Shown here piece after piece: positions 1,711 to 61,220 of a DNA stretch of 64,000 bases; the stretch's first letter is position 1, and every line of letters begins with the position of its first letter. Source of the DNA: Lama guanicoe. Lineage: Eukaryota. Below the pieces are notes generated by a model. That model saw only the letters and a list, made by a program, of their open reading frames with translations, had not been told where the DNA came from and did no database searches. A program made the translations under genes and the position numbers. Location of the stretch: the NCBI GenBank assembly GCA_013239625.1, contig MU053557.1, positions 5,529,842-5,593,841 of the forward strand, in the 5' to 3' direction.

Positions 1711-2419
1711 CACGAAGACATCATTATCTTCATCACCAACCACCCTCACTTCTCCTCCCCAACCTAAATCACCTGCTAAACCGGCAGGTTGTCTCCTTCT
1801 CCCCAGGGTGGCCTTTGGGGAGTCCACCTCAGCAACGTGCTGAGGGTGCAGAGAGCAGGGTACTATCCTCCCCCAAGCAGGATCCAGGAGGTAAATGCTC
1901 ATGCATCGCACAGTTGGACCCACCTGCGCTAAGCCAGGGACCTCCCTGACCTGGTCGCTTTGGGGCTGGGAAGTGACCCCACAAAGGCAGCCGCCAGTAC
2001 CCTTGGCTGGACTTGCCAAGCAGGCTGAACAGGACTCAGTCTGGTTTCTCTAGGCACAGTCTCAGCCCCCAGGTTCTGCATCCACATCTGTACCTCTTTG
2101 AACTTGGGGCAGATTGCAATCTACTTTGAAGTGAGATGCTTGGAGGCTCAGGAAGCAGTATCCTCTGAGGACCCTTTCAGCCCTGACAATAGCTTCAGGA
2201 TCTTCTAAGCATCTTCCTGTTCTGTATCTCAGCTCTGCTCCCCAGTTCCCTGCGCATCAGCCACTCTGCCCCATCCCCCTCCTCATTTCTTCCGCACATC
2301 CTCAGTGACTAGCAGAGGCCTTGGCACATGGTGGGGCCTCAGATGCCCTTGACCTAAAGTGGATGAACAAATGGAGCAAATGACTCAGTGATGATGAAGA
2401 TGATGGCTGCTGCTTCTGA

Positions 2420-2630
2420 GGTTTTGCTACTTGCCAGGCTTGTGTCAAGTGCTTTACTTGCAATATCTCATTTAACCCTCCCAAAAGTTCTAGAAAATGG
2501 GTACCATGATATTCTTCATTGCAGAGAGGAGGATACTGAGTCTGAGAGCATCACAGCCTGTCAAAGCTCAAACACCTAATAAAAGGCACAGCTGGTGTGT
2601 CTGACTGCAAACTCCATTCTCTTAACCGCC
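2420..2630 (-). mobile_element. MIR SINE
   Basis: Reverse-orientation MIR motifs (tgccaggc...gtgctttac...atctcatttaacc...gagga..actgag.ctgagag). Confidence 0.6.
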
Positions 2631-3524
2631 ATATTATATATAATGCTCCAAACTGATGACCCAAAATCCAGATGGCTCAAAGGAATGAGAATTATATGAA
2701 GATTCAGGAAAGAGGATAAGTCTTCAGGTAAGGTTGTTCTGTGGGAGGGTATAGACTGAGAGAAAAGGGGGCAGCTTAATGATAATGAAGCCCTTACTTT
2801 GGGACGTCATGGTGCTACGCTTTATTTAATCATCACAATCCTACAAGGTATATATCATTTCCACTTTTCCAATGAGAAAATTGAGCTTCAGAGTGGTTAC
2901 GCAATATGTCCCAGGTCATACAGCAAGTAAGCAGCAAACCTAGGATTTAAGCTGAAGTCTCCCAGCCCCAGATCCCATAACTTACTGCTCCCCATTATAA
3001 CTGGAGAAGGAGGCACAAATGGGAGAAGGCAGCATTGACCTGAGACAGCTGCAATTGTGGAGCAACACACACACACACACACATATGCTGTCCCCACCTC
3101 CTTCCTCCAGGAATGATGGCATTTGTAAAAACCATGGGATTTTATAGTCAGAGACCACTCACAAACCCTCCATTTATGCTGACCATTTGCACTGGTCAAG
3201 GGGAGGTGGAGGTCCAGGGAGGGTAGAAGCCACCCATGGCCATAAGCAGATCAGGGGCCAGGGTCCAACCAGGGTTGCTCCCCGCCAGCCACCTTGCTGC
3301 CCCTTCTCTGATTCTGGCTCTGGAGCCTCTGGCTGCTGTGTGTGCAGCTCTGCTCCCCTTCCCAGGCACAGGGAAGGGGAGGTGCCTTCTGGGTATAAAT
3401 AGCAGATGAAGATGCTTTTCTTCAGCAGGAGAGTTAACCCTTGGGGCCCTGGACACGGAGAGATGCTTCCCTCCCAAAGGAAAAGACTTGGTGGCTGTCA
3501 GAGTAGGAATATTCCTTACAGAGC

Positions 3525-3670
3525 ACCTAGACCTTGCTCCTCAAGTGTGGGTGGTGAGTCAGCAGCCTTGGCATCAGCTTGGAGAGTGTTAGGAATGTAA
3601 AACCTCAGGTCCCATCCAGACCAACCCACTCAACTAGAATCTACTGTTTAACAAGATGCCCAGCTGGTCC
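3525..3670. mobile_element. MER5A-like hAT-Charlie MITE
   Basis: tcaagtgtgg...agcagccttggcatcagcttggagagtgttaggaatgtaaaacctcaggtcccatccagacc...ttttaacaagat resembles MER5A. Confidence 0.6.
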
Positions 3671-4330
3671 AGACAGCCCTCTCCTTATAAGGATAGGGCA
3701 AAGTGGCTCAGAGAGGGTAGTGCTCCTACGCAAGGTCACATAGCCATTCCCTGACATAACTATATCTAGAATCTGCACTCCTTCCCCCCCATGACTCAGA
3801 ACCCCGACAGGCGGGGATGCAGCCCTCCAGTTGTGCAGGGATGGGGGAGGGGAGGTCAGGCAGTGATGGGCTGTTTCAGTGCCATCCCCGCCGGCCCTGG
3901 GCTCAGCCTCCCCACGCAGCCTGGCCTAGTCCACCCCGGGGCAGGGGCCGCCCTGGGGCTTGCCTAGCACTAGGCAGGGGGCAGGGCGGCGGCGCCGCGC
4001 TGACTCAGCATGGGGGTGGGTTTGGGGAGTGGGCTGCGCTGGTCAAGGCCAAGCTGGGCCTATTTTCGTCTCTCGCAGAGCTTCGGGACTTTTCCTGAAA
4101 CAGCTTTTCTGAAGGAGGCTGCCGGCAGTGTGGGCTGAGAGGAAGGGCCCCTTCTTCACCTTCCCCCCAACCAAGCTGCTCGCTGAGGAGAATGGAAACC
4201 ATTAGCGACACCCCCCTTTCCCACCACTATTGCCGCCGTCCTTGGAAAAGAGAGCAGCTGCCCCAACACCCACCCAGCAGGTTGGGCAGGAGAGGCGGCC
4301 GCCCCCCCCCACCCGCAGCCCCAGCCCCTA

Positions 4331-4353
4331 TTCACGCTCCAGCTTCTGGTGGT
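4331..4353 (-). CDS. CAMK2A: CAMK2A coding exon 3, 5' part only ((D)HQKLERE), truncated by in-frame TAG at 4330-4328
   Basis: Acceptor tgtgtttcag at 4363-4354; phase matches exon 2 (G+AC = Asp53). Reads DHQKLERE as in CaMKII-alpha, then diverges. The expected ARICRLLKHPNIV and GT donor are absent. Confidence 0.85.
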
Positions 4354-5074
4354 CTGAAACACAGGTGCCCAGTGAGCCCAGGTGAGGGAGGCACCTGCAC
4401 CCACCCCACCTCTCCCCCCTCACGGCCTCGGATGACCTCCACCTCCCAGGGCAGCCCCGCCCCTGGAAGAGCTCGCCTTTGGGGCGGAGCCTCTGGGTCC
4501 TCCAGGAAGGCAGCGGGAAGCAACCGGAGAGAGAGAGCCCGGGGCTGCAGTGATTCACAGGTCCCTTCCCCTCTCTGGGCCTCAGTTTCCTGGGCTCTCA
4601 AGTAAGGGGCATCCCCTGCCTGTGTAAGAGCCAAGCTCCGTGCAGCCTGGAACGCCCCCACCGCCGATCAGGCTTCTGCTCCCCTGCTCCAGCCCTGCCC
4701 CTCAGACTACACTCCAGCCGGACTGAACTGCTGAATTTCACCTCTCCCGGCACCCCCTGCTCAGCCCTCTCACTCTGGGGCTTCTCACGTGTGGTTCTCT
4801 GGGCTTGCAATACTCCTTCTTAGCCAACCATCTGTCCTTCACCAGCCATCACTCTCTCCAACCCATCCTTCAATGGCGCCTTCTCCTGGCAGCCTGCCCT
4901 GACTGCCAGGCTAGCAGGGGCTCCTCCCTGCTCTCAGGGTCCCTGGATGGCAAGTCCCACTCTGTCTCATGGATATTGCTATTCTTGAGGGCAAGGACTT
5001 GGTCTCCATTGTCCCCCTGGCATCTACCCAAAGGCCTGGCCTATAGGAGGTGCTCAAGAGATAACTGAATGGTA

Positions 5075-5160
5075 GGGAGGGTGCAGCTCATTGGTAGAGT
5101 GTGTGTTTAACATGCACAAGATCCTGGGTTCAATTCCAAATAACTCCATTTAAAAAAAGA
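5075..5160 (+). mobile_element. tRNA-Ala-derived SINE (camelid Vic-1-like), diverged copy
   Basis: gggagggtgcagctcattggtagagt...gcacaagatcctgggttcaattcc with Pol III A and B boxes and an A-tract; homologous to the copies at 18567, 48980 and 61095. Confidence 0.75.
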
Positions 5161-5634
5161 TATATACTTATCATTTCTTCCGTGTAATATAGTATGAATA
5201 TAACTGGGACATTTAAATGACCCCTTCAACCCATATTGACTCTGTAAACATAAGAATAAAGTTAAAAAAAACACAAAGGAATGAATGAATGAACCTTTCT
5301 AAAGGAGTGGGTATTCTCTATGGGAGAAGGGCTGTATTGATTTGCAGAAGCTGCCTCCCTTGAGAGGACTCAGGACACCTGCTTTCCAGGACTTACGTCC
5401 AAATTCCCTGGACTTCCCCGCCCATCTGGGAGAAAGGCCCAGTTCAGAATCTGCACCTGTGGTCTCTGACTCAGGCTGTTGACCACAATCACCTCCACAC
5501 CTCCCTGGGGTGTGGGCATCACTGTTTTTATGTATTTCTCAATTCCCTTTTTGGTGCTTTTCTCACAACTTGGTAGTTAATACCTTAATTTAAAACAACA
5601 AAATGGAAAAAAAATGGGAGGGGGGAGCCAGGAG

Positions 5635-5870
5635 CAAATGTAGAATATTTACTATGTGCCAGGTGTTATGCAGAGCACTTTAAACACATCTCAAGTCCTC
5701 CCACCAGTCCTCTGAAAGCAGTACTATCACCATGCTGGCTTTACAGAGGAGGCAACAGAGGTTCAGAGAGGTTAAGTACCTGGCCCAAAGTCACACTGTG
5801 GTGAACAGTAGAGCCACACTGTGTACCCAGGCAGTCAGAAACCAAGGCTGAGCTTTAAAACCCCATGCTA
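5635..5870 (-). mobile_element. MIR SINE
   Basis: tactatgtgccagg...ttacagaggaggcaacagaggttcagagaggttaagtacctggcccaaagtcacac. Confidence 0.75.
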
Positions 5871-7039
5871 TCCTGTTCTCCACACCTTGACTCATCACCA
5901 CCACTTCCACCTATCCCCATGCCCCAGTTCCCGACTGGGAAAATTGAGGCTCGCAGGAGGCAGATCCAGGACTAGAACCCCGGCCTCTGGCTCCTCCAGA
6001 GCAGGTGGGCCCCAGGGAGGGCGATGAGGATAGAGAAAGTTCCAGCCCTGTCCCCAGGCAGCTGGTTCCCCTCTCCCCTTCCCTCTCCATTACAGCAATC
6101 ACTGGGCATCCTCTAAGGGCTGCAGAAGCTGAGATCAATACTGAAATGTAGCTTTTCCATCAGCAAAGCAATTAAGTCCAATCCTCTTTCTGTAGAGTGT
6201 AAGCTCCACTCCCCAGCTGAAGGCGGCTGTGGGGGGACGGAGGGGGGCTGGCGCAGGCTGGGGACATCCCTCTGGTTCCCCTCTCTCGCTGCCTCCTTTC
6301 GTATGCTCCAGGGTGGTTCCCCGGGGAAAGGAGGGGGAATCCCCATCCAGGGCTGGCCAAGGGCCCTCAATGACCTGAAGAAGGCTGGATCTTCCCTGCC
6401 TCCACACCCTGTCCCCCACCCCACCCATCCCCAGCAGAACCAGAAACCAGGCAGGTCAAAGTGGGGCCTATCAGAGGGGGCTGGGCTCCTCCTTGCCCAG
6501 GCTACACATTCAGGGGACAAAGGACCTAAATCCAGAATTCTGATGTTTTCTCCAGGTGAGGTCACCCAGGAGCAGTTACACCTGACAGGATTGATGGAAG
6601 AAATGTTGGTCACAGAGCTTCAAACATGGGCCTGGTTACCAGACCTCATAGCTGGAAATGCTGGGAACTAATTGTTTTTATAAATGTTGTAATCATCTGA
6701 TGCATAGTACAATTACATTGCATTGCAACTTTCAGTGCTAAAAGCATTAATTTGTTGAATGTAAACATACACTTTATACAATAATTTTTTTAACTCTGTT
6801 TGAAATGTTTTCACTTTCTCGTATACAGGGAACCTCAAGAAACATAGGGACAGTTTCTCTTGACCTCTGAGGCCTTGCCGCGTTATGTAGATGGGGAAAA
6901 TGAGGCCTAATGATACAGGAGCAGAGTCTTTATCAAAATCAAGGTGGTCGTCAAGGTGGTCAAGCTTTATTACAACTCAGAGCTCTGAGGAACTACTCCT
7001 GAACAGTTCCCACAACCCCTGGACAGCCAAGGACTTCTA

Positions 7040-7540
7040 GTTAAAATATAAATTAAATCTTGTAACTCCCTGACTTCCAACTTTCTAACAGCTTCCTAAT
7101 GTACTTATAATACAATCCAAACTCATCACCACATCCAGCAAGATCCTGCTGGGTCCTGTCTCATCTTCACCTGAAGCTCCAGCCACACTGGGCTCCTTTG
7201 TGGCCTCAGGCACTGCAGTCTCCTTCCTACCGCAGGGCCTTTGCACTGGCTGTGCCCTCTGCCTGGGAGAGTCTTCTCATGGCAGCCTTCTTCACCTCAG
7301 GCAGATCCCAGCAAAATGTCACCTCCTCAGACAGCTTCCTCAGCTGCCTTTTCTGAGAATCCCTCCTGCCCCATCACTTCCCCATTTTCCTGGTTTATTT
7401 TCTTTACAACACTCATCACTACCTGAAATCACCCAGCTTATTTGTGCGTTTAATGTTCTTTTCAGTTCCCCTCCCTAGAAGACAGGTGCAATGAGATCAA
7501 GACCTTGTCTGTCCGTATCTGCCATGTTCCCAGGGCCTAA
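7040..7540 (+). mobile_element. L2 LINE 3' fragment
   Basis: ctccagccacactgg...cagggcctttgcactggctgtgccctctgcctgg...aatgtcacctcctcag, typical of the L2 3' region. Confidence 0.7.
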
Positions 7541-9186
7541 AGCCACTAAGCAGCTTGTTCAAGTTCCCAGAGCCAAGAAATGGCAGAGCTAGGATCTCAG
7601 CCCATGTTCATAATTACTGTACTGTATTGCATTCTCATAACTGATACATACAACCATCCGGCTCAGCAGAGTCCCGTGACAGTGAGATGTCTGAGAGAAG
7701 CGAGTCTTTACCCTCCTGCCTGAGTCCGTGGAAGGGTTGCTCCCAATGCCCATTAGGATGGGTGCTTCTCCCTCCCTCCCTGGGGGCAGGCCTCCAGGGT
7801 GTTGGGGTTAAGGAGGCTGGCCCTGCATAGAGCTTAGCAGGTGGGGGATGGGTGGAGACTCTGGGGCGAGATCCCTGGGCCGGTGCCAGTAGGGCAGGGT
7901 CGGGCAGAGCACAGCCCAGGGAAGAGAGGTCAGGCAGACAGGCAGCGGGATTCTGACTGGAAGTACAGGAACCAAAGGAGAAAACAGACCTCCAAGTCTT
8001 AGAACGGGAAATGCCCCCTCCTTCCACAGGGCCTCAACAGGTCTCCAGATCCTGGGAGGTGGGCGAAATGATCCCACGGACCAAGAGCACCAGGCAGGGG
8101 TGGGGAGGGAATGAGGACGACCGGAAAGACGTGTCTTACTGCTTCCTCACAGGCTCCCTTGCTTGGCCCTGAAGCTCAGGGGCAGCCCCAATGAGCTCAC
8201 ACCATGCTTCCCACCTGCTGTCCTGGCACTGGTCACCAGGGAGCCAAGGAAGAGACTGTCGGCACTCAGGTGGACAGCGGGGCCTGTGAGGATGCTGTAC
8301 CTGAGAGCCAGTCACGTACGGCTGCACCAGCCACATTTGTGCACCCAGCCTGCCCTAAAATGTTGATGAATTCTTCCTGGTGAGACTGTGGCTAGGGAAG
8401 CGTCCAGAGCCCCTGGCAGGGAGTTAGCGCTGAGCGCAGACTGGCTATGGTCACTGCCAGCGGGATTTTTTAAATTCAGCGGCTTGGGTCTCACCTACTG
8501 AATCCCCCACCCTCAGGGGAGGAACTGGGGCAGCTGCATTTTTCAAAAGGCTCCCAAGGGAATTAGGCAGGGATTGGGACAGGAAATTTTTTTTTACCTC
8601 TCATTTCATGTCTTTATGGCTTCTTGGAATTTATACTATGATCATTTTATACAAAAGACTAGTTTAAAAATACACACAAAACCTGTCTCCTGGGTTTGGG
8701 AACCACTCGATAGAAAAGGCTGGCCCTGTGGGGAAGGAAGAGGGGTGGTCAGATGCCCCGGGTGGGCACGACCCCTGCTGGGAGCTGCCAAAGTCACCAG
8801 GGTGTGCTCTCAGGAGAAGCTTAGAGTGTGTTGCCAAATATTCAACATCAAACCGCTCCCACCCCGGGCCCCGTGAGTGGCAAACAAAGAAACCTGCTAA
8901 AAGAAGCTCTGCCCCTCCTCTCCCGCTGGGGAGAAAAGCGTTGGCAGTTGGCAGACTTCTTTGGAAAGGTTCCCCTGAGAGCATCCCCACTCCCACCCTC
9001 ACACTCACCAAGGCCTGGGCATCTTCCTCCCAAGAGGTCAAAGGCGCCACAAATTGCCAGAGACTGGGCTGGGCGGTTACTGCACAGCCCAGAGTCTACA
9101 CTGCCCCAGTAATGCTTAGTCACCAGCCGGCAAATAGGCATTGCCCCTTCCATTCTGCCCATACACATCTGTCTCTTTCTGTCCTA

Positions 9187-9213
9187 TGTGTGTATGTGTG
9201 TGTGTGTGTGTGT
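9187..9213. repeat. (TG)n microsatellite
   Basis: tgtgtgtatgtgtgtgtgtgtgtgtgt seen directly. Confidence 0.85.
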
Positions 9214-10084
9214 GGATGTGGCTCTGAGTGTGCCAGCTTCCAAGGAGGACCTTGGTTCCTGATCGTCATTCATTTTGAGGCAACACAGCCTGTCACCCCA
9301 AGACATCCTGTGCCACCCCACAGGACTGTGGCTCTCGTCCTGCCCCTACCGTATCTCAGGGATGGGGACATCTCTCCATTCCTCACTAGAAACATAAAGC
9401 AGAGAGGGCATTAGATCACCACTAGTCACCCAGCAATGGCAAGGCGAGTCCCAGCATCTGGCCACGAGGCAGCACTCCTGTTAGCCTGCCTGCCCGCCCT
9501 GACTCCCTGCCCCGGCTCCAGCTCTGGCCCTTCCACACCACCGTTCATGCTGACTGTGTGCCACTGCGGGCCCTGCTCATCAGAGAACCACTCTTACCCC
9601 CACCCCAGCCTCCTCTCCCTGCAGGACGCTATCCTCCCTGCTGGGGAGTTCAGTAACTGGGAGAAAGTATTGGGCTCCCAGCAACTCTGAGCCAGAGAGA
9701 TGAAAGGCAGCAGCACACGGTCTGACACGGAGCCTTCTGGGAGGCCCGTGGGAGACAATGTGAACATCCTGTACCAGCCACCGTGAAACCCACACCTGCT
9801 GGGCACCGGCCCAGACACAGCTGCCACTATGCCAGGCAAACACCTGGACGCTGCACCAGCTCCTCACACGATGTCTTCCACACTGCACAGTTCGCACCAG
9901 TACCTGCCTTACCCAACAGAATTCCCATCACCCCTAGGGGTCCCCAAGGCAGCTCAGACCCACCGTTGAGAGTGGGGGATAATAGATATTTGAAGGTAAT
10001 CGTCTCTAACATGCTGACCATGGTCACCACCATTATCAGCCTAACCACATCACATGCTAAGGGCAAGAAGAAAAGCTTCTGAGC

Positions 10085-10365
10085 ATGTGTCCCAAGTTTT
10101 AATGTCAACACGAATCACTGGTGTCTTGTTAAAAATGCAGATTCTGATTCATTACATCTGGAATCATGAATTTGCATTTCTAACAACCTCCTGGTGATGC
10201 CGATATTGCTGGTCTAGGACCACTTCCAAATTAGAATCACCTGGGAATCATTTCCAACACTCAAGTCACAGCCCAGACTAGTTAAATCACAACACTTGGG
10301 GGTGGGATCCAGGCATCAGGGGTGTTTGAAGTGTTCCAGGGATTCCAGGCTTGGTAACTACTGTC
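10085..10365. mobile_element. MER5-like hAT-Charlie MITE(s), probably two adjacent pieces
   Basis: gaatcactgg...cttgttaaaaatgcagattctgattca...tgcatttctaacaa...ggtgatgccgat..gctggtctaggaccac and ttagaatcacctggga. Confidence 0.6.
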
Positions 10366-11076
10366 CTAGGGAGTATTTAGGGACCAGAAGGTGGACTGGT
10401 GTGGCTGAAGCAGGGTACACATGGTGGTCACTGGACACTGGTTCAGCCCTGGATGTGTCAGGTGCTGTCCTAGGTGCTGGGCATTTATAGGGAGTGAGAC
10501 CCATCCCTACCTTCTTGGTGTTTATGGTCAAGAGGGAAGATGGATATTAAACAAGGACCCAAGCCAGTAAGTGGGTTAAATCTAGGTTGGGAGAAAGCCA
10601 CAAAGAAAGTAAACAGTAATGAGAGAGAAAAAATGGGGAAGATCCCCTCAGATTTGGAGGTCAGGGAAACATCTCAAAGGATGTGGCATTGAGCTGAGAC
10701 TCAAAGGTTGAGAAAGAGCCAGCCTTGTAAGGAGCCAGGTAAGGGCATCCAGGCAGAAAGAACGCTAGGGGCAGAGGTCTGGCAGTGAAAACGGAGGCGA
10801 GTGGCAGAAGAACAAGGAAAGGAGGGCCCACCTGGCACCTTAACCTTCATCTGGCTGGGTAGGTGGAGGGCAGGGAGCCTGGCCTGTCAGAGAGGCTGTG
10901 GCCTCCAGCCTAGACCCCTAAGGAAGGAATATGGAGGGGTCTGTTCTCATAACACCCATAGGATGAAGAGCCCCACCTCTGACAGCAGCATATCCCAGGG
11001 GGCAGACCCACGTCCTGGTTCCAACCCAAGCGTTAGAGGGAGGGGTGAAGGGAGGAGATCCCCGGAGGGCGGGTCA

Positions 11077-11226
<150 letters not shown>

Positions 11227-11489
11227 TCAAGGGCTGCATCCTCAGGAGACACCGGAGTTCGTGCAGCAGCACTGTGCTGGGAGGGATCCCCCCTCCAGGG
11301 CTGCTCGAGCTCACAGCGGCTGCCGTAATCCGACTCGGGGACCCAGAAGAACCACTAGTAGTAAATCATTAGGAGCTTGGCCTCATGAGAGATGAGCCTT
11401 CTAGAGTCATAAGTTAGGTTCACCAAGTTCTAAAATATTAGCATCATACAGTGTTAGAATCACAGAATCTAGGTCCCTGGAAGCTTTCA

Positions 11490-12178
11490 GTTTTTTATTC
11501 TTTGAGTATGTAACACACGACATGGTTCAAAGTTCAAAAGACACAAAGATGGAGGTAGTTAAAAGACTCCTTCCCATCCCTGTACCCTAGTCTCCAAAGT
11601 CCCTTCCCCAGAGTTGGCCAGTGCGGCCAGAGCAGCTTTCCACAGATGCTCTCCCCCTCGCAAACGGTCCTGGCCTTTGCGTGCTGTTCTGTACCCTCCT
11701 TTTATTCAGAAATTTGTTTAGAGATCCTCCTTCTATATTATAACATAGAGCTCCCCATTATTTAATTGTACGGCTGTCCTGTAATTTACCTAGCCTGTCC
11801 CCTATTGATGGGCAATTAGGTTAGTTCCAATTCATAGCTATTACAAACAGTGCTGCAATGACTAACCTTATATGTGTGCATTAGAATTACATTTCCCCTG
11901 CGTGCAGGTGTCTGTGGATAAACTTCCAGAGTTGGTATTATTGGTCAAAGGGTAGGTGTTATTTGGTAATATTGACAGATAATGAGAGACTATCCATCTT
12001 AGAGATGAACCTACCAGTATATGAGGGGACCATTTCCTCTGCCCTTAGCACAATGTGTTATCAAACGTTCATATCTTTGCTAGTGAGACAGGTGGAACAT
12101 GGCGACTCAGTGTGGATTTGATTTGGAATTCTCACATTCAGAGTGAAGCTGAGCATCTTTTCATATGGTTTAAGACAC
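11490..12178 (-). mobile_element. Ancient L1 (L1ME-like) 3' fragment
   Basis: ccctattgatgggcaattaggttagttccaa...gctattacaaacagtgctgcaatga...gctgagcatcttttcatatg, hallmark reverse-strand L1M motifs. Confidence 0.7.
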
Positions 12179-18566: not shown

Positions 18567-18694
18567 GGGGGGAGGGTATAGCTCAAGTGGTAGAGGGCCT
18601 GCTTAGCATGCACGAGGTCCTGGGTTCAATCCCCAGTGCCTCCACTGAAAAACCAAATAAATACATAAATATACCTAACTACCTCCCCCTGCAA

Positions 18695-26150: not shown

Positions 26151-26900
<750 letters not shown>

Positions 26901-29342
26901 TCTCTCTCTCAGTGGATGACTATAGTCTCTAACTATCTCTCTGCTCCTGTTTTGGGTTGTTTTTTTTTTTTTGCCTCTGTATCTCTCTTTCTTATTCTGC
27001 TCTCCCTCTCTCTGTTCCCTGCCACCTTGTCCATCATACTGGCACTCTAGCTTGGGGGAGATGTGCAGAGGACTACCAGAATTCTGGAAGGAACACCCTT
27101 AGCTGCCTGCTCACCCCCACCCCCTCAACTATGACAACTGGTCCCCTCCTGAGGTCTCTTCCATAACCGCTTCCCCACCCCAGGCCCCCAGAGGGGCCAA
27201 GGAGATCTGGTCTCCTGGGGCTCATGTCCCAGTTTCTGCTTATGTTTCAAGTCAAGGTGAGAGACGCGGAGGCGGCAGTGGGGAGGGGAGCATGGCCTGG
27301 CTTGGAGGGGAGTGGCCAGAGACTGCCTTGAAATCCTCATTCCCAAATTTTTGTAGGCACTTTCCCTGCCAACTTCAACTCTTCAGGGCCGTAATCACAT
27401 CTATAGCCCCAAGGCGAGCCCCTAGGCCGAGGGGGTTAAGAAGAAAAGGGACTGGCATATAAAGATCTGAGTTCAATTTCCAATCCCAACATACATTAGC
27501 TGTGTCTCCCTGGAAGTCACAGCCCCTCTCTGAGCCTTCAGTCCCTTTTCTACAAAACAGAACTAAGGTGCCACTGCAGAGGAAGGCCACGAAGATGGAG
27601 CAGGCTGAGGGCTGTGGAGGCCTTTGGGAAGTATGTAAACATGAGGCTTCTTTTTAGTTTCTAGAAGAGGAAAAGGAAGGTCTAAAGTGTGACCATGACC
27701 ACCCCCATCACTCTAGCTTGAACTTAGAATCTCAGACCCTTACACCCCACCCTTCCTCCATTCAGGCTCACTTCACAGCCCACCAGGCTGTCTCACACCA
27801 GCACTGGCCGGCAAAGAGCACAGGATAAATGCATCCAGGATCCAAACCCTCTGGGTTTCCAGCCCACCCCTTTGGAACTTTCAGACTGCCTTAGTAGTCA
27901 TCTCACTTGCTGGACATGTTGTCTGTTGTCAGCAGATCCCTGACTCACTATTTTAGGTCCAGGGATCCCTGGAGACATCTGGGTACCCCCCCCCACCAAT
28001 TCTGCCCCTCTTCCTGGGAGCTGGAAGTGGGAGAAGATGATAGGGTTTGGCTCTCTGATGCAGCCACTTCTTCCCAGGAGAGAAACAGGAGGGAGGCAGA
28101 GGGGAAGGAGAGGAGGAGAGCCAGGGAGGAGGGGGTAATGGCTTAGCCACTAATTGCACCATTACCACCTTCAGAAAAAGGAAAAACCACTCAGTTTTGT
28201 TTCTGCGCACAATATGCTTCCCGCTTCTGCCGCCAACGTTGCAATTCACAGGCAGAGAAGAGAGGCCCTTGCTTGGGGGCTGCACAGCCGGTGGGCAGCA
28301 GGCAGGGCACAAAACGCTGCTAGAGGCTAGAGGTAGATTCAGGCAAGCAGGAGAAGGCTGCACTGCCACCTCCCTGCCCCAGAACCTCTAGCCTGCCCCC
28401 GGGAGGGGATGGCTTCCATGCATGAAAGCACAGGAACAGCCCTTAGTGACCACAGAGGCCACCTCGGTCATTGCCCAGGGGAGAGGAGAGGCAGTGTCAT
28501 GCAGTGGTTAGTGAGACTCCATGACCCATAGACTGTGTGATTTGGGATGAATATCCTAACTTTTCTGTGCCTCAATTTCTTAGTCTGCAAAACAGGGTTA
28601 AGCATTGCCCAGCTCCAGGGCTGTTCTAAGCATTAAATGAGGTGAGCACAGTGGCTGATACACTGTAAATGCTCAGCAGGTGGAAAAATTATTCTTATTA
28701 AGGGACTCAAGCCCCTCTCTCGTCACACCGCTGTCTCTGAATCCTGGTAGTATCATCAGTATCATCAAGTGCCAGCACTTTGGGTGCTGTTCTCTGAGTC
28801 CCCACTGGAGTTGAGCTCATGGTTTGAACATTACCTTGCCCAGGACTGGTTTGCAGAATTCCTGTAGAACAAAGGACTGGGGCTAGAGGGCAGGGGTCAC
28901 AAGGCCTCTAGCACATCAGGTGCCAACAAGCAAACGAACAAATTTGAAATTAACAAATAAAACAAAAGGCAAAGGTGCCCTGAGGCTGTATTAATGGAAG
29001 TCTAATGTTCTGAATAAAGGAGGTGATAATCCTGCTTGGTTTAGAGCTGGCCTGATCTGCTCCCCTTCCCCACCTCTTTCTTCCCTCACTTGAACCCTTC
29101 CTTCTCAGGTGTCCCCATCCTTCCTATTCCTTTTCACCCCCTTTCTTGTTTCTATTGCCTTGTTTCCTCCCTTTCTCTCAGTCTCAGTCACTCTCCTCTC
29201 CCTTCCCGTGCTGGCCCGGACCCTGTGCACATGGTAATGGAGGATGGCAGGCTGCAGGATGCTGGTGGTGCAGAGATGGCTGGAGACCACAGAGAGGGAG
29301 GTAGATGTGGAAAAGGAAAAGGTCTCCTTGGCAACTCTCATT

Positions 29343-33630: not shown

Positions 33631-35032
33631 TCAGATCCGGTGGGACATCAGTCTGGTGTTGAGTTTACGGAAAAAGGACCGCAGCTTGCAAATCTTGCAT
33701 TTTTTCTTGCGGCGCCCCCGGGAGAAGCTTCGAGCCCTGCCTTCCTCCTCCTCTTCCTCTTCTTCCTCACTGGCCCAGGGCCCCCAAGCACCCCCATTAA
33801 AGTCAGGATGGGCCCGGGGATTCTCAGCCGGGTAGCGCACGGGGATGGCTGTGCGGTTATAGTCCACCAGGCGGGCCAGCAGGGCTCGGACCACATCTGG
33901 CCGCTGGCCAGCGAGGTCCTCCCGTTCGTAGGGGTCAGCACTGATGTTGAAGAGCCACACAGCCTGGCGAGCACTGGCCATCCGCTCCAGGTTCCACCAG
34001 CTGCCAGGGAAGGCAGCTAGCGTCTGCGGTGGGATCCAATCACCATAGCCGGGGTCTCCTGTCAACAGCTTCCACTCACCTACACGGATGGCGGCCTGCA
34101 CAGCGGTGTTCCAGATGCCAAAGCCACCCTCCAGGGAGCCATGCCGGGCGTGGTTGTAGAGCGGGTCAATGTTGTGCAGGATCTCTGTGCGCGGCGAGGC
34201 CCGGCCCTCGCTGATGGCTGGCCACACGTCATAGCCATCCAGCCCATCGGCCGCCGAGGCGGTGCCACCTGCCAGACCCACCAGGGTTGGGTACCAGTCA
34301 GTGATGTGCACCAGCGCCCGGCTTGTCCGTCGCTTTCTCTTGAGAAGGGGGCTGTGGACGAAGCCCAAGCCCCGCACACCGCCTTCCCAGTACGTGCCCT
34401 TGCGTCCTCGCAGTGGCCAGTTGCTGCCCCCTGAGAAGGTCTGGCCACCATTGTCACTGGAGAAGATGATGACACTGTTGTTATAGAAACCGTAGCGCTT
34501 GAGGGCCCAGGTGATATTGCGCACGGCCTCGTCCATGCAGGTCACCATGGCCGCGTACTTGCGCCGGGCCACGTTGCCCATGGTGCGGTACCGGTACAGG
34601 TACTCACGAGGGGACTGCAGGGGTGTGTGTACCGCCTGGAAGGCCACATAGAGGAAGAGGGGCCGCCGGGGACTTTGGCTGGCTAGGATGTGGCTGACGC
34701 GCTGGGCATAGAGCAGAGTGGAATACTGGCCGCTGAGCCCCCAGGCCACACTCTCGCCCTCGTGCAGGTCAAAGCCACACACCCCTGGGCCGTCGCAGTT
34801 GTCATAGGTGTAGTAGTCCACGTTGCCCGTGAGCGAGCCCAGGAAGGTGTCAAAGCCCCGGCGGGTGGGCAGGCACTCCTTCCGGTAGAAGCCCAGGTGC
34901 CACTTGCCCACCATGTGGGTCGAGTAACCCAGCTCCTGCAGCTTCTGGGGCAGTGTCACCTGGTCCAGGGGCAGGCAGTTGGGCTGCCGAGGGCGGATGA
35001 TGGAGTGCTGAAGTCCTGTATGGATCTGGTAT
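33631..35032 (-). CDS. ARSI: ARSI coding exon 2 (1402 nt including TGA): sulfatase domain and C-terminus
   Basis: Polypyrimidine tract and AG acceptor at 35034-35033; AG+A = Arg, then YQIHTGLQH. Sulfatase motifs [32 protein letters not shown]; ends ...[11 protein letters not shown]. Confidence 0.97.
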
Positions 35033-35149
35033 CTGGTGGGAAGAGGGAAGGACACAGAAGGCACCAGTGAGCTACAAACCACTGCTCTGGCCACCCAGCC
35101 CCCAACACTCACCCTGAGGTGGGCTCTCGCCCCAGGGCGCCCAGCAAGC

Positions 35150-35600
35150 AAAGCAACAGTATGTATTACCAAATGTGTTAAGCACTTCGAATGCATTATC
35201 TCACTGAATCCTCAAAATCTACTGAAGTAGGTATTATCCTCATCTTACAGATGTGGAGGCTGAAGCTCAGAATGGTTAAGTCACTCATACAAGACCACAC
35301 TGCTAAGAAGTTGGGGAGGTAAGAGCTGAACCCAGGCTAATGATGACAACAAGAATAATAATAGCTGACACCACACACTCACTGTTCGCTCACCTGAGCC
35401 CCTTAAATGAATCATCTCACTAAATCCTCACCACAACCTAAAGGGTGCATTTCATTATTATTATTCTCATCTCTCAAATAAGGAAACTAAGGCTCAGAAA
35501 ACTAAATCATTTGCCCAGTGATTCACACAATTAGTAACTGGAGTTGAGATTTGTGTCCCCAGTAATCTGGCTCCAGATTTCAGAGTCCCTACACTCTAAG
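35150..35600 (-). mobile_element. Two tandem MIR SINEs in the ARSI intron
   Basis: cattatctcactgaatcctca...ttacagatgtggaggctgaagctcag, then again atctcactaaatcctcac...aaggaaactaaggctcaga...ttgcccag. Confidence 0.7.
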
Positions 35601-38432
35601 CCACTAACTTGCCATGGGGCCGAGAGCCAGTCCCACTCTCTCAGGAAAACTCCTATTCACTCTTCAAAGCCCAGCCCAAATGTTATCCTCACTATAAACT
35701 TTCTCATAACTCTCTCAAAGCATGAGTCACTTTTGCTTTTGGGTTCCCACAGCATTCAGTGCAAACCTTCATTGTCTAACTTGGCCGTAAGATTCTACTC
35801 AGTTGTATGTACATGCTCTTGGGCCCAATGATATGTACTCATCCTTGTATTCCCAGCACTCAGGTGATGTTTCAAGGACACTCAATTACTTATGAAATGG
35901 AAAAATGAAGAATGACATTCAAAGGATTTTAGAGCCAGAAGGGGCCCAAGTCATTTTCAAGTTTATGTACCTTGACTTAAAAAGAAACTAAGGTCCAGGG
36001 GAGGGGAAAGACCTTGCCCAAGCTCACTCAGTGGTCAGGAGCAGAGCCCAGACTCGAACATAAATCCAATCAGAGTCCAAGCACAGATCCTTTGCTGGCA
36101 AACTAGGCAGCCACTTCTCTTTCCACACAGAGGCCTCAGTTTGCTCATCTGTAGGAGTGAGTTGGTTGGAATGAGACACCTCTAAAAACCTTCCAGTTCT
36201 CAAGTTTTATGAGACCAGTTCCCATGTGCCTGCCCACAAAGTTTATGTGGCCCCTGGATCCCGGTCACTCACACAGGCTAACGCCCCGAGGCAGGAGCAA
36301 GTGGTTAGCAGAACCCTGCATTCCTCATTTATTCATTCATATCCCATTCCTTCTTCTGTGGTCAAGGCACTCATGTGATCTGCTTATGGTGCCCTGCCTT
36401 TACTCAAGTCTTACAAGTCCCAGACTAAATAAGAAGGCTGGAACCTCACACATGTCTTAGAATCCTACTCCTTTTTCTCATGCCCAGGCATCCAAGTTAA
36501 GCGGAGACGTAAATTCTTGACACCTCCAAGCCAGGACCTGGGGTGGGTTTTTCTGTTTTGCTTTTCTTATCTTAAAGCTGTTTGTTGTTAGTTATCACTA
36601 GCTACTACTGCCATTTTTAAATACTATATGTCACATATAGTATTTCATTTAATCTGCATTAAAAACCTACAGAGCCTATTAAACCCATTCTACAGATGAT
36701 GAAACTGAGGCTCCCAAAAGTGCAGCAACGGGCCCAAGTTCAGACAGCTGGCAAGCAGTGGAGCTGATTTTTGAACCCAGGTCTGTGCAACTCATGCTCG
36801 GAATGTCTCAGTCACGCGGCCTCTGCAGACCACAGTCAAGCTAATGAACAATTAGATTTGATATAAGATGTACCCTAGGGCCCCGAGTTGTAATGAGCCT
36901 CTCTTCACAGGGGCTGGGCACCTTGGAATGCTGGTTTGTAAAGTGGGTGGGCCAGGTAAGAGTCACCGAAGCCTGTCTGCAAGTGAGTAACATGGGAAAC
37001 TGGCTCTCTCCAGCTTCACCAAACACGGCTGGATGCACTAACAAACACTAATGAGAGTAGTCAGCATCAGTCAGATGGAGCCAGCTGTAGGGCGCAGAGG
37101 GCAGACGCTGCCCAGCCACACGCAGCTAACTTTGCAGATTGGGGCGGGAGCTGGAATGCTGCCCTGCATGCTGCTCATTCCCCTGCCCAAACCAAAAGTC
37201 ATCTCTGGGGAGAGAAATGCTAACTTGTGCATCGCTCTGGGGAATGCAGATTCCTCTTCCCTCTTCTGGAGATAGGTCAACGTTTCGTCTTTTCCATCTG
37301 CCCCCACCCCCAACACATACATTGATTCCCCTTCCTCTTTCCTGTTCTCTCTCTCTGTTCCTCGATCTAAATGCTGAGCGCCAGATTGAAGGAAGAAAAG
37401 GCACCTACTTGACTCCCAGCTACAGGGCTCCTCTAAGCACTGGCCTCTCAGCCTTCTCTCGTACAGACCTGAAGTTGGGCACAGGCCCAGAATTTGGCCC
37501 TCCCTGACTCCGTGCCTCAGTTTCTCCCATCCAGGAAACAGGGAAACTACACAGCCCTGGTTCCTGAGATCACACCAGTGGCTTTTGAGTGGAACTTGGG
37601 AGAAAGCATGCCTTGGACCCCATCCAAGGAGGATTAGCTTCAGCCTTGCCAAAGGATTTTCTCCTAAGTGGCCAGAGTTTGCCTTCCACACCCCCACCTC
37701 CTGTTTCCCTGCTCTTTTAATCCTGTAATCCTACCACCTTGCCTGGGACAACTCCTTACCAAGAAAGTAGCACGTCTCCTTGGGGCTCCCAGCCAACTTG
37801 GGAGGGTTTCACAGATGAAAAAACAGGCTTGGAGAAATGATGTAACTAGTCTAAGGCTACACAGGTCAAGACACCCTGTGTGTGTTTTTCTCGGCCACCT
37901 ATCAATTCCTTGGTTTCTTCCCAATGTTGTCATCAAACAGTTGGGGGACCCTAATTCCTCCAGCGACATAGAAGCTTCCATTATTGACAGCCAAGTAGGT
38001 TATATGCAACTCGTTCAACCCTCATCACTCCTTTTCAAGATTAAAAACTGTTCTTCACTCCATTTTATGGATAAGAAAACTGAGGCTTAGAGAAGTGAAG
38101 TGATTTGCTCAGGGCCTCAGGGTATGTTAATAAAAGCAGCATTCAAGCTTCAGCGTCTCTTTCACATGTGTGGAGTGTGAATGTCCTAGAACATCAGAGG
38201 GAAAAGACCTCAAGCATGATCCAACCCATTCAGTGTACAGGTAGAGAAATCAAGGCCCAGAAGGGCAAAGGACTTACTAATGATCACACAGCCAACTGGA
38301 GACATAAGACAGAATTAGCCCTGAGCTCTGGTTTCCCAGGTCCCAACGGGGGACTGTCAGTACAGGGGAAACCTACAGCTGGGTTTATTTGGGGCTTGGA
38401 CCACCAGCATCAGCAGCCCGGCCTGTGCCTAC

Positions 38433-38743
38433 CTGCCGGTGAGAAGTTGGCTCCGCGAAGGCGTGCAGATGGGCTGAATATAATAGTTTTCCAATTTGAC
38501 ACCCTCGGCCGCCAGCCGGTCCAGCGTAGGGGTTTCGATATCTGAGCCATGGTAGCCCACGTCGTGGTAGCCCTGGTCGTCGGTGAGGATGAAAATGATG
38601 TGGGGAGGCTGGGATGGGGCGGCCGAGGGCTGCTCGCTGGCCTCCGCGGGTGCGTCGGCCACCAGGCTGGGCTTGGCCCAGTTCCAGGACAGGTAACCGA
38701 AGCTGAGCAGGCTGACCAGAGAGAAGCCGGTGAGGGCGTGCAT
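38433..38743 (-). CDS. ARSI: ARSI coding exon 1 (311 nt): signal peptide, DD metal ligands and formylglycine motif CTPSR
   Basis: [20 protein letters not shown]...[21 protein letters not shown]...[14 protein letters not shown](R); Cys codon at 38467-38465; donor GTAGGC at 38432-38427. With exon 2 gives 1713 nt = 570 aa plus stop. An in-frame ATG also lies 6 nt upstream (38749). Confidence 0.97.
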
Positions 38744-48903: not shown

Positions 48904-49523
48904 TGGCAATGGATTAAACTGTGTCCCTCGGAAAAGATATGCTGAAGCCCTAACCTCCACTACCTTAGATTGCGATCTTTCTTTTTTTCTTTTTCTTTTT
49001 GAGGGGGGAGGTAGTTAAGTTTATCCTTTTTTTTTTTTTAAGAGGAGGGACTGGGGATTGAACCCAGGACCTCGTGCACGCTAAGCATGTGTTCTACCAC
49101 TTCAGCTATAGCCTCCCCCTCCTCAGAATGTGATCTTATTTGGGGAAAGCGTCTTTACAGAAGTTCTCAAGTTAAAATTACATCAATAGGGTAGGCCCAA
49201 CCCCTGTGTGACGGATGTCCTTATGAAAAAGGGAAGTTGGACACAGAGACACAAACACAGGGAAGACCCCATGTAAAGATGGAGGCAGCGATCAGGGTGA
49301 TGCATCTACAAGCCAAGGGAAGCTGAAGATTACCAGCAAAGGACCAGAAGCCAGGAGAGAGGCCGGGACAGAGTCCCCCTCACAGCCCTCAGAAGGAACA
49401 GCCCTGCCAACACCTTGACCTTAGACTTCTAGCCTCCCGAAACAGGAGACGGGTAATACATTTCTGGTGTTTAAGCCACCCAGTTTGTGTCCTTTGTTAT
49501 GGCAGCTCTGGTGAACAAATACA
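48904..49523 (+). mobile_element. MaLR solo LTR (MLT1B/C-like), interrupted by a SINE
   Basis: tgtgtccctcggaaaagatatgctgaagccctaacc...gccaacaccttgaccttagacttctagcctcc...tttaagccacccagtttgtg...aaataca. Confidence 0.8.
48980..49120 (-). mobile_element. tRNA-Ala-derived SINE (camelid Vic-1-like) nested in the MLT1 LTR
   Basis: Reverse complement of the SINE head (ctggggattgaacccaggacctcgtgcacgctaagc...ctaccacttcagctata) plus T-tails; degenerate 17-bp direct repeat at 48963-48979 and 49121-49137. Confidence 0.88.
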
Positions 49524-61094: not shown

Positions 61095-61220
61095 CATTGC
61101 TGGGGGTGGGGCAGCTAATTAAGTTCTTATTTATTTATTTAATGGAGATACTGGGGATTGAACCCAGAACCTTGTGCATGCTAAGCACTCACTCTACCAC
61201 TGAGCTACACCCTTCCCCCC
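61095..61220 (-). mobile_element. tRNA-Ala-derived SINE (camelid Vic-1-like)
   Basis: (ttta)n linker then tggagatactggggattgaacccagaaccttgtgcatgctaagc...ctaccactgagctacaccc; GTATAAC direct repeat on both flanks. Confidence 0.88.

What the first reader, a model, noticed from the sequence alone, without database searches (positions are those of the whole stretch)
4290..4363. CAMK2A exon 3 is broken: in-frame stop after Glu60 and no splice donor
Seen: after a good acceptor the minus strand reads AC CAC CAG AAG CTG GAG CGT GAA TAG, so spliced exons 1-2-3 give a 60-aa peptide ending ...DHQKLERE*. Known: CaMKII-alpha continues ARICRLLKHPNIV in an exon I recall as 60 nt, which would end at 4294, where there is no GT. 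I did not find the missing coding part (about 37 nt) elsewhere in the window. Exons 1-2 and the promoter are intact, which argues against an old pseudogene. Inference: either a local assembly collapse in a very G-rich stretch (more likely) or a real recent deletion allele that would abolish the kinase.
Basis: partly seen in the sequence, partly recalled or inferred. Interest (0 to 1): 0.72.

Follow-up and report, generated by a model that had tools for sequence, protein, structure and literature searches.

The report
CAMK2A exon gap, probably assembly error
About 40-50 bases that hold the end of exon 3 of the brain kinase gene CAMK2A are missing from this genome sequence, right beside a very G-rich stretch; this is most likely an assembly error rather than a real gene loss, but it could not be checked against reads.

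Summary
In detail: exon 3 of CAMK2A (minus strand) stops after 23 of 60 nt, TAG follows at 4330-4328, and the native donor is absent. New here: antisense reading frames from intact orthologous DNA of unnamed non-camelid genomes (2 clusters) match the window on both sides of 4330/4331 and hold the missing exon tail and donor between. 17 of 17 that reach exon 3 show one gap there, 36-51 nt. So it is a clean small deletion, not a rearrangement. The junction abuts one of the 8 most G-rich 30-mers of the window, with a second on the exon's other side. The rest is unblemished: exons 1-2 are 52/52 identical to mouse, and ARSI is intact. No camelid read or contig across the site was seen, so artefact versus real allele is undecided; I put artefact at 0.72, a rare real deletion at 0.24, a common or fixed loss at 0.04. 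One correction: a 60-aa peptide is only one outcome; skipping the 60-nt exon keeps the frame.

The parts
26152..26213 (-). CAMK2A coding exon 1 (62 nt from ATG), donor GTGAGT intact
   Evidence: residues 1-52 identical to mouse entry P0049 at 52 of 52
11097..11191 (-). CAMK2A exon 2 (95 nt), acceptor and donor intact; encodes Lys42
   Evidence: (31/31 to PDB CaMKII-alpha)
4354..4375 (-). acceptor region of exon 3, ends TTTCAG
4331..4353 (-). remnant of exon 3: 23 of 60 nt, up to Glu60
4330..4331 (.). junction: 37 exon nt, the donor and a few intron nt are absent (best estimates 43-51 nt in all)
4328..4330 (-). in-frame TAG; by alignment these bases are intron 3 sequence brought next to the exon
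4302..4328 (-). four G-runs ending in G9 (G-quadruplex-type motif) directly after the junction
   Evidence: motif scan; 21 of 30 bases in 4301-4330. Folding into a quadruplex is not shown
4392..4429 (-). second very G-rich cluster, upstream of the exon 3 acceptor
4334..4335 (-). weak cryptic donor GT (AGC|GTGAAT), before the stop; would give an in-frame 18-nt exon, 14 residues short
   Evidence: (5.0 of 9 on a crude U1 match, against 6.5 and 7.5 for the native donors of exons 1 and 2); use not shown
4272..4312 (-). two further GT sites (4312, 4273), 6.5 of 9; either would include the TAG
   Evidence: use not shown
33631..38743 (-). ARSI-type sulfatase gene, two exons, open 570-aa frame: local control for assembly quality
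   Evidence: Pfam Sulfatase in both exons; the name ARSI rests on recalled synteny

Best explanation
A local assembly or consensus error. About 43-51 bases (37 of exon 3, the donor and a few intron bases) were dropped where a short exon sits between two extreme G-rich tracts, and the flanks were joined without a gap. The animal's CAMK2A is then intact. Shown: the gap, its place, its rough size and its G-rich setting. Inferred: that the cause is technical, and how (thin or error-prone coverage at a G-run and quadruplex-type motif).
For: Junction at the edge of one of 8 clusters with 21 or more G (or C) in 30 nt; 0.57% of window positions lie within 5 nt of such a cluster, 0.16% have one on both sides (3.1% and 1.3% at threshold 19; threshold taken from the locus, so post hoc). 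No sign of decay: 52/52 identity to mouse over exons 1-2, splice sites intact. Human CAMK2A is intolerant of loss-of-function variants (PMC10379032, passages), and biallelic loss gives severe disease (PMC5963920, passages), so real null alleles should be rare. CAMK2A is expressed in dromedary hypothalamus (PMC9508118, passages). False gene losses affected 26-60% of genes in older assemblies, missing exons among the commonest, scaling with GC (PMC9516821, passages). Deletion errors are raised at G-quadruplex motifs in Illumina, HiFi and ONT data (PMC10519405, abstract).
Against: No camelid read or contig across the site was seen, so nothing shows an intact camelid allele. The window has no N and the GC-rich ARSI gene is intact, which points to a good assembly, where a 45-nt false deletion is uncommon (my judgement). 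The error rates in PMC10519405 may concern single bases; I read only the abstract and opening text. The figures in PMC9516821 are for older assemblies, and the type of this one is unknown. G-rich motifs also promote real deletions (recalled). Homozygous null mice are viable (PMC5963920), so a carrier animal is not impossible.
Confidence: 0.72

Rival explanations
1. A real, rare deletion in the sequenced material (a heterozygous germ-line allele, or a somatic or cell-culture clone) that the haploid assembly happened to keep, formed by a replication or end-joining error next to the G-rich motif. Transcripts would skip exon 3 (in frame, 20 residues lost, Glu60 included, kinase-dead but with the hub domain), use the weak GT at 4335 (14 residues lost), or include the TAG and be degraded.
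For: Clean join without N in an otherwise faultless window. A single sharp gap with collinear flanks. Absence of decay in exons 1-2 fits a recent event as well as an artefact. Heterozygous frameshift alleles occur in living people (Gly22Glufs*10 in the table of PMC10379032).
Against: Strong constraint on the gene makes such alleles rare. No microhomology is evident from the comparators, though their third codon positions are unknown. No independent sequence with the junction was found, but the look-ups had no power: 0 of 10 window frames, 9 controls included, were in the protein collection.
Confidence: 0.24
2. A common or fixed loss of full-length CaMKII-alpha in this camelid lineage.
For: Not excluded: no camelid sequence across exon 3 was obtained (all blank). 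Null mice are viable. An earlier unchecked note reports another broken gene, EEPD1, in this genome.
Against: No amino-acid change in exons 1-2 against mouse, so any loss is recent. The gene is expressed in dromedary brain and Bactrian mammary gland (PMC10277799, passages), though these are other camelids and expression does not prove an intact exon 3. No paper on such a loss in searches.
Confidence: 0.04

Closest known systems
False gene losses in genome assemblies (Kim et al., PMC9516821; passages read)
   Same: Part of a coding exon is missing in GC-rich sequence, giving an apparent premature stop and splice-junction disruption in a conserved gene.
   Different: Their classes are defined by comparison with a better assembly and by read mapping, which I could not do; here there is no N at the site.
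Human CAMK2A loss-of-function alleles, e.g. Gly22Glufs*10 and c.817-1G>A (as tabulated in PMC10379032; passages read); Camk2a null mice (as summarised in PMC5963920; passages read)
   Same: If real, this allele would also remove kinase activity from one copy.
   Different: A deletion across the exon 3 donor, whose skip product is in frame, is not among the rows I saw; no camelid allele turned up in searches.
Database CaMKII models that lack exon 3 (P0044 bird; P0051, P0067, P0083, P0091 fish)
   Same: 5 of 35 models holding both the exon 2 end and the exon 4 start have no exon 3 sequence, so this small exon is often lost from gene models.
   Different: Other lineages, some possibly paralogues; whether the cause is assembly or annotation was not examined, so this is weak support.

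Membership tests
CAMK2A (CaMKII-alpha) gene | Coding exons match CaMKII-alpha better than beta, gamma or delta | tested here: met
   Exon 2: 31/31 identical, 50-52 bits to alpha chains against 40-45 for delta, beta, gamma; 52/52 to mouse alpha entry
CAMK2A (CaMKII-alpha) gene | 60-nt exon 3 followed by a GT donor | tested here: not met
   23 nt present, no GT at 4293; 12 of 12 comparison loci have 60 nt + GT
Assembly artefact (false gene loss) | Reads of the same individual contradict the assembly | not tested
   No read or contig data on the site were obtained (one search gave no data)
Assembly artefact (false gene loss) | Site lies in GC-rich or non-B-motif sequence | tested here: met
   GC 0.72 in 4231-4330, top 1.2% of 100-nt windows; G-cluster counts; not specific to artefacts
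Assembly artefact (false gene loss) | Gap characters or other errors nearby | tested here: not met
   No N in 64,000 bases; ARSI frame open
Real deletion allele | Junction present in reads or in independent animals | tested here: inconclusive
   Exact look-up of the junction-spanning frame blank, but so were 9 of 9 controls; word-level run search cannot resolve about 30 of 9,701 positions
Old unitary pseudogene | Further lesions and amino-acid drift in other exons | tested here: not met
   52/52 and 38/39 identity, intact splice sites; only exons 1-3 lie in the window
Repeat collapse or microhomology-mediated deletion | Direct repeat or microhomology at the two breakpoints | tested here: inconclusive
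   None evident from non-camelid comparators known only as protein; the camelid intron start is unknown

The most novel reading that the evidence does not exclude
The deletion is common or fixed in South American camelids, which would then live without catalytically active CaMKII-alpha, or with an in-frame exon-3-skipped, kinase-dead subunit that still carries the hub domain: a natural mammalian test of the kinase's catalytic versus structural roles in memory.
Probability: 0.04. Interest if true: 0.88.

Novelty: not a real feature. Interest (0 to 1): 0.15.

Why it matters
If it is an artefact, it is a small fix to a reference genome and a warning for gene-loss screens and for read mapping at this exon. 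If it is a rare real allele, it is a carrier of a null allele in a gene for human intellectual disability, worth genotyping in herds (interest about 0.45). Only a common or fixed loss would surprise specialists, and that is unlikely.

Tried and rejected
No whole genome is held. Laying public contigs on the site gave no data, so the decisive test is open. Run search: 15 of 24 listed runs, from 5 studies and 3 organism labels, hold 0.91-0.93 of 1,010 sampled words of 1800-11500; this shows the locus is ordinary shared DNA but cannot resolve the junction; the 9 rows with shares of 0.19 or less are no evidence. Exact exon-start pattern in JGI metagenomes: 0 matches. Protein searches with window frames at the site: no candidate; 16 candidates, none scoring. 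Exact look-up of 10 window frames: 0 of 10, so no power. Of the 4 hits, P0121 and P0122 were dropped as repeat-rich chance matches. P0125 was dropped because it ends before exon 3. My idea that the GT at 4335 is the native donor, left by a 42-nt loss between two short repeats, was rejected: the comparators place the donor inside the gap, with the window's TAG region aligning to intron sequence just after it; a camelid-specific intron start is not excluded. No unusual hairpin at the site (z 0.49); no tandem repeat. The missing coding part is not elsewhere in the window (the fuzzy scan gave only scattered chance hits). VicPac3.1 supplements: no hit for CAMK2A, KCC2A or ARSI in 10 of 10 files. 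Paper searches for the Lys42-Glu60 pair found nothing, so that role is recalled. Kury et al. 2017 is not held and is known to me only as cited. PMC6318768 and PMC10298453 (passages) gave no constraint score for CAMK2A. One search gave two listings, not read. bioRxiv supplements were not seen; none is known to bear on the claims.

Full report
Observation. The minus strand carries the first three coding exons of CAMK2A: exon 1 at 26213-26152, exon 2 at 11191-11097 and the start of exon 3 at 4353, each with a canonical splice site on the sides that are present. Exon 2 is 31/31 identical to CaMKII-alpha chains in the PDB and scores lower against the other isoforms. Joined by coordinates the three give 60 residues, then TAG at 4330-4328. 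Database CaMKII proteins continue for 13 more residues before the exon 4 sequence: 29 of 35 models that hold both anchors have a 21-residue stretch there, 1 has it extended, 5 lack it. At DNA level, 12 of 12 CaMKII loci fetched from metagenome contigs have a 60-nt exon followed by GT; they were picked by a pattern for the exon's first 23 nt and are not shown to be alpha orthologues. The window has only 23 nt, no GT at 4293, and no trace of the missing residues elsewhere.

What is missing. No genome is held and no reads were laid on the site (one search gave no data). I therefore used the plus-strand open frame that spans the site as a probe. Among 1.84 billion proteins it gave 4 hits; two were repeat-rich chance matches, and two (P0123, P0124) are frames called on unnamed genomic contigs, antisense to an intact exon 3. 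P0123 matches window 3700-4314 and P0124 matches about 4200-4900, so they come from the orthologous locus; their low identity (47% and 39% in the best tblastn pieces) shows they are not from this species. Their clusters have 3 and 16 members, 18 listed. Aligned as base profiles, 17 of the 17 that reach exon 3 show one large gap at 4325-4333: 51 nt (12), 49 (1), 44 (2), 36 (2, low-scoring and below the 39 nt that the exon tail plus GT need). Ungapped anchors gave 44 or 38 for P0124 (tied) and 31 or 43 for P0123. These are two clusters, not 17 independent witnesses. The bases after the junction align with intron 3 a few bases past the donor. So the lesion is a clean deletion of roughly 43-51 nt with collinear flanks; the exact size and any microhomology need camelid DNA.

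Setting. A four-run G motif ending in G9 begins at the junction (4328-4302). The 30 bases 4301-4330 hold 21 G on the minus strand; only 8 such clusters occur in the window, and another (4392-4429) lies just upstream of the exon. 0.57% of positions lie within 5 nt of such a cluster and 0.16% have one on both sides; at a threshold of 19 the figures are 3.1% and 1.3%. The threshold was taken from the locus, so these numbers are descriptive. No hairpin excess and no tandem repeat were found. The rest of the window looks sound: no N, an open 570-aa two-exon sulfatase gene, and 52/52 identity of exons 1-2 to mouse. Fifteen of 24 listed public runs, from 5 studies and 3 organism labels, hold 91-93% of sampled words of 1800-11500; this cannot resolve the junction.

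How it most likely arose. Best reading (0.72): bases were dropped during assembly or consensus calling where a short exon sits between two extreme G tracts. For: the setting; the lack of any other decay; the constraint on the gene (gnomAD intolerance as stated in PMC10379032, passages; recessive disease and mouse deficits in PMC5963920, passages); expression in dromedary brain (PMC9508118, passages); the frequency of false exon losses in GC-rich DNA (PMC9516821, passages); raised deletion errors at G-quadruplex motifs in all three technologies (PMC10519405, abstract and opening text). Against: no N and an otherwise clean window; those papers do not show 45-nt deletions in modern assemblies; G motifs also cause real deletions (recalled); null mice are viable. 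A rare real deletion kept by the haploid assembly gets 0.24, a common or fixed loss 0.04. All attempts to find camelid sequence across the site were blank and weak (in one search all 9 controls were blank too).

If it is real, what would be made. Loss of a donor more often causes exon skipping (established knowledge, recalled). The exon is 60 nt, so the skip keeps the frame, as database model P0091 shows, and removes 20 residues including Glu60. That Glu60 is the helix-C partner of Lys42 is recalled; a search for it found nothing. A weak GT at 4335 would give an in-frame loss of 14 residues; GTs at 4312 and 4273 would include the stop (crude U1 match only). All products should lack kinase activity; the in-frame ones would keep the hub domain (inference; the later exons lie outside the window).

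Comparison and novelty. The gene is CAMK2A by test. The lesion works like a false gene loss but lacks the defining test (reads contradicting the assembly). It fails the test for an old pseudogene. No paper on a camelid CAMK2A loss appeared in searches (0 papers; 4 of 5 listed; 20 of 22 listed) or 58 (6 of 7 listed), judged from titles and abstract starts; most subscription journals are not covered. PMC6598621 and PMC13751797 (passages) show that several alpaca assemblies of different types exist; which type this window comes from is unknown, and that matters for the odds.

Verdict. Real in the sequence, probably not in the animal, unproven either way. Interest 0.15; one read-mapping step would settle it.

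Noticed in passing
window 38743-33631 (-): Two-exon sulfatase gene (ARSI by recalled synteny), open 570-aa frame with donor at 38432 and acceptor at 35032; ordinary.
   Followed up: yes
   Followed up: no
P0044, P0051, P0067, P0083, P0091: Five of 35 database CaMKII models lack exon 3, most with intron-like sequence in its place; likely assembly or annotation faults.
   Followed up: no
window 5075-5170, 18570-18667, 49033-49117, 61134-61216: Four related copies of a short interspersed repeat, 73-83% alike to the first.
   Followed up: no
window 26381-26214 (-): The exon 1 frame is open for 56 codons upstream of the ATG, without another ATG; probably chance.
   Followed up: no
P0049: A mouse database entry for CaMKII-alpha (108 aa) leaves the usual sequence right after exon 2.
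   Followed up: no
window 27986-27994: The only other run of nine C (G on the minus strand) in the window, upstream of CAMK2A exon 1.
   Followed up: no
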